A stretch of DNA of 63,948 nucleotides, counting the filler, from Lama guanicoe (Eukaryota): assembly GCA_013239625.1 (NCBI GenBank). It is 80 parts of 78 records of this genome, joined end to end, with 100 filler letters (N's around TTAATTAATTAA, not from the genome) between each part and the next. Parts side by side here need not be neighbours in the genome. Positions count along the whole stretch, not along the records: positions 31,943 to 32,452 come from PNXV01021039.1; positions 32,553 to 33,393 come from PNXV01021043.1; positions 33,494 to 34,159 come from MU056480.1; 77 more parts are not named here. One strand, given 5' to 3'. The number at the start of each line of letters is the position of its first letter. Within the stretch, counting starts at the first letter, position 1. This document shows positions 31,843-34,259 of the stretch, piece by piece. A program made the position numbers and the translations under genes. A model generated the notes under the pieces. The model had not been told where the DNA came from. It saw only the letters and a list, made by a program, of their open reading frames with translations, and ran no database searches.

Positions 31843-32580
31843 NNNNNNNNNNNNNNNNNNNNNNNNNNNNNNNNNNNNNNNNNNNNTTAATTAATTAANN
31901 NNNNNNNNNNNNNNNNNNNNNNNNNNNNNNNNNNNNNNNNNNTCTCTTTTATGTTCCCATTCACTGCTATGTGTTTTCAGCAGAAGTAAGGTTCAGCCCA
32001 TGAAGTCATCATTCCACTTGACTGGACATCTGTATTCTTTTATATATCTTTTCCCACTGAAAGTTACACCACGAGCATTTCCTATGTCATTTACTATAAT
32101 TCAAGAACTGTTTAAGATGGTTTCATAATAATCCATCTTATGATTGTGCTGTAATTTAGTAAGTCATTAGATTCTGGTAAGAAATTAGACTCCAATTTTA
32201 CAATTTTCCCTGCTCTTAAGAAATATTTTGTTGAACATCCTTGATGATAGCCTTTTTTCTTTCACTATATTTCTGATTATTTCCTTAATATAGATTATTA
32301 CAATTACAATTACTGGATCAGATTTAATGGACATTTTTTTACCATTCCTGATGCTTTTTTTACCAAAATGCTTTCTAGAAGGACAACTTATGAATTTAAA
32401 GGGTGGTTTGTCTCCTAAAATAGAATTGAATAATAAAAAATTTATGAGATTTNNNNNNNNNNNNNNNNNNNNNNNNNNNNNNNNNNNNNNNNNNNNTTAA
32501 TTAATTAANNNNNNNNNNNNNNNNNNNNNNNNNNNNNNNNNNNNNNNNNNNNACAGAATCTTGAGGATTATTGTAATAAT

Positions 32581-32740
32581 CCTCCTCCACCTCCTCCTCC
32601 TACACCTCCTCCTCCTCCTCTTCCGCCTCCTCCACCTTCTCAGCTTCCTCCACTTCCTCCACCTCCACCTCCTCCACATCCTCCTCCTCCTCCACATCCT
32701 CCTCCACATCCTCCTCCTCCTCCACCTCCTCCTACCCTCC
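32581..32740 (+). repeat. (CCT/CCA)n low-complexity tract
   Basis: Directly visible in sequence. Confidence 0.95.
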
Positions 32741-32932
32741 TAGGGGAGGGTAAACAGTTCAACTAGTGCCTCATTCCGCTTCAACTATGGATGATGCTAG
32801 AAGTACTAGGAATGAGGCGGGTAGCAGCCAGAAGCTCATGTTGTTCATGCGGGGAAATGTCATGTCTGGGGCGCCAAGCATTAAAGGAACCAGTCAATTT
32901 CCGAAGCCCCCAATCGTGACTGGTATGACTAA
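32741..32932 (-). pseudogene. COX1: NUMT: mitochondrial COX1 fragment (about residues 70-132)
   Basis: Vertebrate mitochondrial code gives [63 protein letters not shown] versus canonical [66 protein letters not shown] used for Trp. Confidence 0.96.
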
Positions 32933-33341
32933 TCCTCCTCCTCCACTCCCTCCTCCTCCTCCACCCCCTCCTCTTCCACTTCCTCCTCCTCCTCCTCCAC
33001 CTCCTCCTCCACATTCTCCTCCTCCACATCCTCCTCCTCCACCTCCTCCTCCTCCTCCTCCTCCTCCTCCACCACCTCCTCCTCCTCCACCTCCTCCTCC
33101 CCCACATCATCCTCCTCCACATCCTCCTCCTCCACCTCCTCCACATCCTCCTCCTCCTCCACATCCTCCTCCTCCTCAACCACATTCTCCTCCTCCATAT
33201 CCTGCTCCTTCTCCACCTCCTCCTCCTCCACCTTCACCTCCTTCTCCTCCTCCTCCTCCACCTTCACCTCCTCCTCCTCCTCCACCTCCTCCTCCTCCTA
33301 CACCTCCTCCTCCTCCACCTCCTCTTCCTCCTCCACATTCC
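32933..33341 (+). repeat. (CCT/CCA)n low-complexity tract
   Basis: Directly visible; ~400 bp C-rich strand. Confidence 0.95.
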
Positions 33342-33493
33342 TATTTAGGTAGAGAAAGTAGTACTGCTCATCCTGGTCCTAGAAACCAGAAAANNNNNNN
33401 NNNNNNNNNNNNNNNNNNNNNNNNNNNNNNNNNNNNNTTAATTAATTAANNNNNNNNNNNNNNNNNNNNNNNNNNNNNNNNNNNNNNNNNNNN

Positions 33494-33611
33494 AGGGGGG
33501 TAGCAGCCAGAAGCTCATGTTGTTCATACGGGGAAATTCCATATCTGGGGTGCCAATAATTAAAGGCACCAGCCAATTTCTGATGCCCCCAATCATGATT
33601 GGTATGACTAA
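33494..33611 (-). pseudogene. COX1: NUMT: second, diverged COX1 fragment
   Basis: VMPIMIGGI*(AGA)[28 protein letters not shown]; same junction to (CCT)n as the first copy. Confidence 0.95.
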
Positions 33612-33742
33612 TCCTCCAACTCCACCTCCACCTCCTCCACCTCCTCCTCCTGCTCCACCTCCACCTCCTCCTCCACCACCTCCTCCTCCTCCTACTCCAC
33701 CTCCTCCTCCACCTCCTCTTCCTCCACCTCCTCCTCCCCCCC
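33612..33742 (+). repeat. (CCT/CCA)n tract
   Basis: Directly visible in sequence. Confidence 0.95.
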
Positions 33743-34259
33743 NNNNNNNNNNNNNNNNNNNNNNNNNNNNNNNNNNNNNNNNNNNNNNNNNNNNNNNNNN
33801 NNNNNNNNNNNNNNNNNNNNNNNNNNNNNNNNNNNNNNNNNNNNNNNNNNNNNNNNNNNNNNNNNNNNNNNNNNNNNNNNNNNNCTAGAAACCAGGAAAG
33901 AACTGAGCGTACTTTGAGATTCCATCGAAAGACTGCTTCTGGTTCTTTTCATTAGAGGCTAAATGCGGCACCACTGGTAAATCTACTTCCAGCTTGATTT
34001 ATCCAGTTAATTCTCCATAATTCAACACTTGAATTCATTTCAGGCTATATTGAAGACTGGCAGTAATTATTTTCTTTGTTAACAGTTGCATATGAAGTAG
34101 CTTTAATTAAATATTATATTGGAAATTAGACAGAATCTTGAGGATTATAGTAATAATCCNNNNNNNNNNNNNNNNNNNNNNNNNNNNNNNNNNNNNNNNN
34201 NNNTTAATTAATTAANNNNNNNNNNNNNNNNNNNNNNNNNNNNNNNNNNNNNNNNNNNN

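What the first reader, a model, noticed from the sequence alone, without database searches (positions are those of the whole stretch)
32553..34159. Mitochondrial COX1 fragment apparently amplified inside a ~1.07-kb nuclear tandem repeat
Seen: two separate scaffolds carry the same architecture in circularly permuted form. Scaffold 1 runs ACAGAATCTTGAGGATTATTGTAATAATCC - (CCT)n - antisense COX1 - (CCT)n - CTAGAAACCAG. Scaffold 2 runs COX1 - (CCT)n - gap - CTAGAAACCAG - 245 bp - ACAGAATCTTGAGGATTATAGTAATAATCC, so it ends with the start of scaffold 1. The two COX1 pieces share the same junction (GGTATGACTAATCCTCC) but differ at 13 of ~118 aligned bases, so they are distinct copies from one insertion. 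Inference: a head-to-tail macrosatellite of about 826+245 bp whose monomer contains a NUMT. I do not recall such a family being described in camelids.
Basis: partly seen in the sequence, partly recalled or inferred. Interest (0 to 1): 0.8.

Follow-up and report, generated by a model that had tools for sequence, protein, structure and literature searches.

The report
Camelid repeat carrying mitochondrial COX1 fragment
Two diverged copies of a dead 190-base piece of the mitochondrial COX1 gene sit beside CCT-repeat tracts in a camelid nuclear repeat whose spacer is very abundant in other animals, so this is likely an undescribed tandem array of 0.9-1.1-kb units that multiplied an old mitochondrial insertion, a known kind of event.

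Summary
Two unplaced scaffolds carry the same minus-strand COX1 fragment with one shared junction. The copies differ at 14 of 118 bases and decay neutrally in both frames.

New evidence: the 275-bp spacer is held in part by 20 listed runs from 6 studies. In 4 of 4 runs laid, it falls on 90-375 contigs, some at depth above 1,000. Contigs from 2 runs continue from its end into (CCT)n. Contigs from 3 runs continue from its start into scaffold 1's tail.

Best reading: a high-copy head-to-tail macrosatellite (unit about 0.9-1.07 kb, likely hundreds of copies) carrying one old COX1 insertion as a neutral passenger. Not shown: depth over the NUMT, consecutive units on one molecule, or the chromosome.

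Precedents are the cat Numt array and macaque DUX4-NUMT arrays. My searches found no camelid description, but a 2023 alpaca NUMT paper was unavailable. The scan had not noted this before.

The parts
32553..32579 (+). Head: last 27 bp of the spacer, directly before tract A
   Evidence: 29/30 match to 34130-34159
32580..32740 (+). (CCT/CCA)n tract A, 89% pyrimidine
32733..32752 (.). 8-bp perfect inverted repeat around a 4-nt loop at the COX1 3'-end junction; possible fold-back repair scar
   Evidence: the 8-mer is absent from the other 683 bp of tract. Post hoc and weak.
32741..32932 (-). COX1 NUMT copy 1, codons 69-132, 9 amino-acid changes against mammalian COX1 plus a changed junction codon
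32933..33335 (+). (CCT/CCA)n tract B, 403 bp, 90% pyrimidine
33336..33393 (+). Tail (43 bp) plus first 15 bp of the spacer
   Evidence: 14/15 match to 33885-33899; loose ends before 33887 in X2, X4 and X11 resemble it (compared by eye)
33494..33611 (-). COX1 NUMT copy 2, codons 69-107 (cut by the scaffold start), with an in-frame mitochondrial stop at codon 79
33612..33742 (+). Tract B of copy 2, followed by a 142-N gap (33743-33884)
33885..34159 (+). 245-bp AT-rich spacer plus 30 bp matching the start of scaffold 1; very abundant in public DNA runs
   Evidence: no Pfam, PDB, protein-collection or Rfam match

Best explanation
Both scaffolds hold copies of one dead COX1 insertion beside (CCT)n tracts, and they are likely units of a high-copy head-to-tail macrosatellite (about 0.9-1.07 kb) that carried the insertion along as a neutral passenger. 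Steps: (1) Inferred: a roughly 190-bp mtDNA fragment was patched into a break in a (CCT)n tract by end joining. The right junction repeats the TAAT-CCT start of the tract and the left has an 8-bp fold-back, which hints at microhomology-mediated repair. (2) Shown: one insertion, because both copies share the junction. (3) Partly shown: duplication followed soon after, as the copies share 0 of 10 derived amino-acid changes. The insertion is roughly 17-45 My old under assumed neutral rates. (4) Inferred: unequal exchange, helped by the long homologous CCT tracts, amplified the unit to likely hundreds of copies in several subfamilies, and slippage varies the tract length. (5) Shown for these two copies: no purifying selection in either reading frame.
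For: Circular permutation of the two scaffolds. Spacer held in part by 20 listed runs, 6 studies, 2 organism labels; one may be the window's own source. In 4 of 4 laid runs: 90-375 contigs on 275 bp, all 28 bins covered, single contigs at depth 1,373-3,359, 23-73 times the lowest listed contig of the same run, and mean 3,300-8,500 per contig at position 33943. At an assumed 10-60x coverage that means tens to hundreds of copies per variant. Spacer end continues into (CCT)n (X1 one contig, X2 two) and spacer start into the tail (X2, X4, X11). Neutral decay between copies: COX1 frame pN 0.111 vs pS 0.148, plus-strand frame pN 0.126 vs pS 0.097, one stop. Scaffold 2's spacer is 4.0% (11/275) from the run majority, against 6.6% (15/229) of decay since the insertion. 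So the majority likely split from scaffold 2's lineage at or after the insertion.
Against: No listed contig spans the whole spacer, and none shows two consecutive units. The tool warns that summed contig depth is no copy number, and single-copy depth of the runs is unknown. No run holds more than 0.46 of the spacer's words. Eleven positions differ from nearly all contig depth in all four runs, so the window's copy is atypical. Depth over 33905-34024 is several times that over 34025-34159, and longer loose ends at 33970 and 34025 (133-255 nt) show more distant relatives in other contexts. The 4.0% vs 6.6% contrast is not significant (Fisher p=0.23); counting 7 polymorphic sites it is 6.5%. Zero shared changes only rejects more than about 40-50% shared history. 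The junction signals are 2-3 informative bases, noticed post hoc.
Confidence: 0.68

Rival explanations
1. The spacer-(CCT)n repeat is high copy, but the NUMT sits only in a minor, older subfamily. The assembler resolved these two copies because the NUMT made them distinctive.
For: NUMT depth not measured. The window's spacer differs from the run majority at 11 of 275 near-fixed sites, and depth is uneven along the spacer, which shows subfamilies.
Against: 2 of 2 assembled copies carry it. The two are 11.9% apart, deeper than scaffold 2's spacer is from the majority, so the majority most simply nests among NUMT-bearing copies.
Confidence: 0.15
2. The ~1-kb piece occurs as short dimers or runs inside a larger segmental-duplication block, not as a long pure array. 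One candidate is the alpaca chr11 block with about 10 'formin-2-like' models, which could be poly-proline predictions from these tracts.
For: PMC13751797 reports dispersed FMN2-like copies in a ~10-Mb repeat block. Long loose ends show other contexts. None of the published monomer sizes is about 1 kb.
Against: Per-contig depths in the thousands fit about 10 copies poorly. By eye, the long loose ends look like diverged homologues of the spacer, not breakpoints. No annotated camelid protein with this sequence was found. The chr11 link is only a lead from a gene name.
Confidence: 0.12
3. The units are copies of an expressed poly-proline gene that has recruited the antisense COX1 strand as coding sequence.
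For: A 213-codon stop-free plus-strand frame in scaffold 1 runs from the antisense NUMT through tract B and the tail, with internal ATGs. The same frame is open in copy 2. CCN tracts vary most at position 3.
Against: That frame shares third codon positions with COX1, so it is open passively: only 1 of 64 codons could give a stop. The 10 hits to it look like antisense COX1 ORFs from other contigs (5 read). pN is not below pS in that frame. Tract A is in a different frame and stops inside the NUMT. Spacer frames are full of stops and have no homologues.
Confidence: 0.04
4. Assembly chimera of mitochondrial reads joined to a microsatellite.
For: Tiny unplaced scaffolds from a fragmented assembly; low-complexity flanks.
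Against: The fragment carries amino-acid changes and a stop that functional COX1 would not have. Two 12%-divergent copies share one junction. Independent runs confirm the flank order.
Confidence: 0.01

Closest known systems
Macaque DUX4-NUMT joint tandem arrays (PMC13179385; section 'NUMT evolution in primates' and passages read)
   Same: A NUMT duplicated together with nuclear sequence as part of a tandem unit.
   Different: There the host unit carries the DUX4 gene. Here the unit is about 1 kb, half (CCT)n, has no recognisable gene, and is likely at higher copy number.
Domestic cat Numt macrosatellite, 7.9 kb x 38-76 (Lopez 1994, as cited in bioRxiv 10.1101/2022.04.04.487049; passages read)
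   Same: Mitochondrial DNA tandemly amplified in the nucleus after one insertion.
   Different: The cat unit is a 7.9-kb mitochondrial fragment and described as recent. Here mtDNA is 18% of a composite unit and has decayed about 6-7%.
Human NUMT-derived VNTRs, 8-46 and 9-18 copies (PMC13179385; passages read)
   Same: NUMT sequence as substrate of tandem repeats.
   Different: Those repeats arise inside the NUMT. Here the whole NUMT rides in a larger unit with nuclear flanks.
Alpaca satellite families VpaSat01-20 (PMC13751797; Results, one Methods section, Discussion passages and the xlsx supplement read)
   Same: Large-monomer camelid tandem repeats.
   Different: Monomers are 1.8-8.5 kb and the main text has 0 mentions of NUMT or COX1. 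None of six 11-13-nt motifs was found in the supplement, but only the first 400 nt of each monomer was visible and six loci have no consensus.
gau, the antisense ORF of COX1 (PMC3214167; passages read)
   Same: The open plus-strand frame shares third codon positions with COX1, as gau does.
   Different: By the paper's human coordinates gau covers about COX1 codons 128-229. This fragment covers 69-132, so the overlap is only a few codons, and no constraint is seen.

Membership tests
NUMT | Homology to a mitochondrial gene | tested here: met
   PF00115 E=6e-16; mammalian COX1 69-132
NUMT | Joined to non-mitochondrial flanks | tested here: met
   Contiguous with (CCT)n on both sides in scaffold 1 and on one side in scaffold 2
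NUMT | Neutral decay after insertion | tested here: met
   pN about equal to pS; stop at codon 79 of copy 2
Macrosatellite / satellite DNA | High copy number | tested here: met
   Spacer only: 90-375 contigs per run, single-contig depth up to 3,359 in 4 of 4 runs; absolute number not calibrated
Macrosatellite / satellite DNA | Head-to-tail order of units | tested here: inconclusive
   Both spacer ends join the predicted neighbours, but no molecule with consecutive units was seen
Macrosatellite / satellite DNA | Long array at one or a few loci | not testable with these tools
   No whole genome held; no long reads among the 24 listed runs
Tandemly amplified NUMT (cat Numt, macaque DUX4-NUMT type) | NUMT present in most units of the array | tested here: inconclusive
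   2 of 2 assembled copies; indirect divergence argument; NUMT depth not measured
VpaSat01-20 alpaca satellites | Sequence match to a published monomer | tested here: inconclusive
   0 hits for 6 motifs in cells cut at 400 nt; sizes do not match
gau-type antisense COX1 gene | Covers the gau region and is under constraint | tested here: not met
   Region overlaps only at its edge; pN 0.126 vs pS 0.097

The most novel reading that the evidence does not exclude
A Camelidae-wide array of hundreds to thousands of units, older than the camel-llama split, makes this 190-bp COX1 piece one of the most amplified NUMTs in a mammal. The array is transcribed from its pyrimidine-rich strand, giving anti-COX1 RNA or a poly-proline peptide with a mitochondrion-derived antisense segment.
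Probability: 0.05. Interest if true: 0.75.

Novelty: new member of a known kind. Interest (0 to 1): 0.4.

Why it matters
A survey of 45 mammals found tandemly duplicated NUMTs scarce (bioRxiv 10.1101/2023.04.20.537758, passages read). A case with likely hundreds of copies would be an extreme of post-insertion amplification, and it adds a repeat family not seen in what I could read of the 2026 alpaca satellite catalogue. The NUMT is also an internal clock: mammalian COX1 protein is nearly invariant here, so every unit can be dated against a known ancestor. That makes the birth and homogenisation of a macrosatellite directly testable. In practice, many nuclear copies of part of the COI barcode region (placement recalled) could add false variants to short-read camelid mitogenome or heteroplasmy work. 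There is no evidence of function.

Tried and rejected
No whole genome is held, so no genome-wide count was possible.

No RNA holder was listed, which says nothing about expression.

Metagenome contig scans gave 0 matches for the junction and 0 for a spacer motif. They are uninformative for host DNA.

Host-gene search:
- The 212-aa poly-Pro frame gave 6 weak low-complexity hits.
- Its first 62 residues gave 10 hits among 12 candidates; the 5 read are antisense-COX1 ORFs.
- The spacer had 0 Pfam hits in 6 of 6 frames.
- One spacer frame had 0 hits in PDB, 0 among 62 longer candidates and 0 among 1.84 billion representatives.
- No language-model look-alike search was obtained, so a very remote coding origin of the spacer stays open.

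Rfam gave 0 matches in the window.

Earlier scan notes had nothing on this sequence.

Literature: 10 searches found no camelid NUMT array. Anello et al. 2023 (alpaca NUMTs, Small Ruminant Res) was seen only as a citation and is not held; it may already list these copies. The pptx supplement of PMC13751797 and the monomer sequences beyond 400 nt could not be read.

No camelid mtDNA was available, so dating rests on amino-acid changes against a PDB mammalian COX1 chain and on recalled neutral rates.

Full report
1. Observation. The window is a string of 80 short unplaced scaffolds, many of them satellites. The finding covers two adjacent ones. Scaffold 1 (32553-33393) has a 27-bp head, a 161-bp (CCT/CCA)n tract A, a minus-strand COX1 fragment at 32741-32932, a 403-bp tract B, a 43-bp tail and 15 bases of spacer. 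Scaffold 2 (33494-34159) starts inside the COX1 fragment, crosses the same junction into (CCT)n, has a 142-N gap and ends with 275 bp. The first 15 of those bases match the end of scaffold 1 (14/15) and the last 30 match its start (29/30). About 1e-9 such 30-base matches are expected by chance. The fragment is COX1 codons 69-132 (Pfam E=6e-16; mammalian PDB chains E about 1e-30). Joining the pieces gives 1071 bp, or 898 bp with scaffold 2's shorter tract and estimated gap. No other scaffold in the window is related.

2. The fragment is an old, dead NUMT. Between copies, pN/pS is 0.111/0.148 in the COX1 frame and 0.126/0.097 in the open plus-strand frame, and copy 2 has a mitochondrial stop at codon 79. 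I compared both with a mammalian COX1 chain and assumed camelid COX1 is identical there. Copy 1 has at least 10 replacement changes in 141 sites and copy 2 has 5 in 88. In their overlap each has 5 private amino-acid changes and none is shared. The copies therefore parted fairly soon after the insertion, though 0 of 10 only rejects more than about 40-50% shared history. Pooled decay is 6.6% (95% CI 3.7-10.6). That is 17-46 My at assumed rates of 4 to 1.5e-9 per site per year (rates recalled). The Camelini-Lamini split is given as about 15.8 My in PMC13603154 (passage), so the insertion likely precedes it, with wide error.

3. Junctions. The NUMT-to-tract-B junction repeats the TAAT-CCT sequence with which tract A begins. 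The other junction has an 8-bp perfect inverted repeat whose arm is absent from the other 683 bp of tract. Both fit repair of a break in a polypyrimidine tract by microhomology-mediated joining with a little templated synthesis, with tracts A and B deriving from one ancestral tract. Only a few bases are informative and I noticed them post hoc, so this is a hint.

4. Copy number and order, from public runs. No genome is held. The spacer 33885-34159 is held in part by 20 listed runs from 6 studies under two organism labels, none with half of the sampled words or more (best 0.46). One could be the window's source. I laid 4 of the 24 listed runs, from 4 studies and both labels. They gave 167, 237, 90 and 375 contigs on 275 bp, with all 28 bins covered. 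Single contigs reach depth 1,576, 1,373, 3,359 and 2,285, which is 23-73 times the lowest listed contig of the same run. Contigs over 33943 average 3,300-8,500. The tool warns that summed depth is no copy number, and the runs' single-copy depth is unknown. At an assumed 10-60x, the deepest listed contigs stand for 23-336 copies each, so hundreds of copies in total is a fair inference. Behind 34148-34157, three contigs (X1 one, X2 two) run on into (CCT)n. Before 33887, contigs of X2, X4 and X11 run into sequence resembling scaffold 1's tail (about 19 of 21 core bases, by eye). So the spacer lies between tract B plus tail and tract A, which closes the circle.

5. Results against a simple picture. 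No listed contig spans the spacer or two units. Depth over 33905-34024 is several-fold above that over 34025-34159. A linked cluster of variants at 34026-34037 (19-60% of depth for three of the four sites) marks subfamilies. Loose ends of 133-255 nt at 33970 and 34025 in X1, X4 and X11 show more distant relatives. The window's spacer differs from more than 75% of depth in all four runs at 11 of 275 sites, so it is an atypical copy or from another species. The argument that most units carry it is indirect. Both assembled copies do, they are 11.9% apart, and scaffold 2's spacer is 4.0% from the majority against 6.6% of decay since insertion. That last contrast is not significant (p=0.23), and it vanishes (6.5%) if 7 polymorphic sites are counted. 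The 80% likeness filter also favours close copies.

6. Is it a gene? A stop-free plus-strand frame runs from the antisense NUMT through tract B. It shares third codon positions with COX1, the arrangement described for gau (PMC3214167, passages). Only 1 of 64 codons could give a stop, and it does. Its relatives look like antisense ORFs of ordinary COX1 (10 hits; 5 read). Tract A is in another frame that stops inside the NUMT. Spacer frames have many stops and no homologue. No RNA holder was listed, which is no evidence either way. I treat the unit as non-coding.

7. Mechanism. Best reading (0.68): one COX1 fragment entered a (CCT)n tract (single insertion shown, repair route inferred). The ~1-kb segment duplicated soon after (partly shown) and was amplified by unequal exchange into a macrosatellite (high copy shown for the spacer; long tandem array inferred). 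The NUMT is a neutral passenger (shown for two copies). Rivals: NUMT in a minority subfamily (0.15); short runs inside a larger duplication block such as the alpaca chr11 block with about 10 'formin-2-like' models (0.12; PMC13751797; a lead from the name only); expressed poly-proline gene (0.04); chimera (0.01).

8. Known cases. The cat Numt is a 7.9-kb unit repeated 38-76 times (as cited in bioRxiv 10.1101/2022.04.04.487049, passages). Macaques have DUX4-NUMT joint tandem arrays and humans two NUMT-derived VNTRs (PMC13179385, passages and one section). A 45-mammal survey found tandem NUMT duplicates scarce (bioRxiv 10.1101/2023.04.20.537758, passages; 0 mentions of camel or alpaca). The 2026 alpaca satellite paper lists 1.8-8.5-kb monomers and never mentions NUMT or COX1 in its main text. 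Six motifs found nothing in its supplement, where monomers were cut at 400 nt. Ten literature searches showed no camelid case. Anello et al. 2023 on alpaca NUMTs was seen only as a citation and may contain it. PMC5703718, PMC8662614, PMC11403998 and bioRxiv 10.1101/2025.03.14.643190 were seen as passages and add nothing on this family. The camelid label comes from earlier scan notes and from by-eye likeness of neighbouring scaffolds to published alpaca satellites.

9. Verdict. It is a new member of a known kind, unusual for its short, old, (CCT)n-sandwiched NUMT and its likely high copy number. There is no sign of function. Interest 0.4.

Noticed in passing
window 51947-52929: Its start resembles part of VpaSat02-5021 (by-eye comparison), a family that PMC13751797 detected only in South American camelids. 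This hints at the window's tribe.
   Followed up: no
window 39658-40498, 49693-50808 and 8 linked scaffolds; 17270-17810: A 10-scaffold family with 260-267-bp periodicity; parts resemble VpaSat16-1836 by eye.
   Followed up: no
16 scaffolds, e.g. window 2119-2962, 6519-7497, 59678-60791: Abundant AT-rich 7-bp satellite with 21- and 63-bp higher-order periods, 20% of all scaffolds in the window. It is far shorter than the monomers tabulated in PMC13751797.
   Followed up: no
window 10696-11389, 36118-36899, 37000-37796, 38811-39557, 53030-54173: A 240-249-bp satellite family on five scaffolds.
   Followed up: no
window 33998-34126: In the run majority, one spacer frame loses the window's stop and reads as about 43 hydrophobic, helix-like codons. 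Subfamily changes there look conservative by eye. No homologue was found with the window's own copy; it may be a coding relic or chance.
   Followed up: partly
window 33970 and 34025 (runs X1, X4, X11): Long loose ends (133-255 nt) that look like more diverged homologues of the spacer in both organism labels. They may be the ancestral low-copy locus of the array.
   Followed up: no
window 33943-34118: Of the near-fixed differences that change GC content, 7 of 8 have A/T in the window and G/C in the runs (p=0.07): AT-ward decay of this copy, or GC-biased conversion in the main array.
   Followed up: partly
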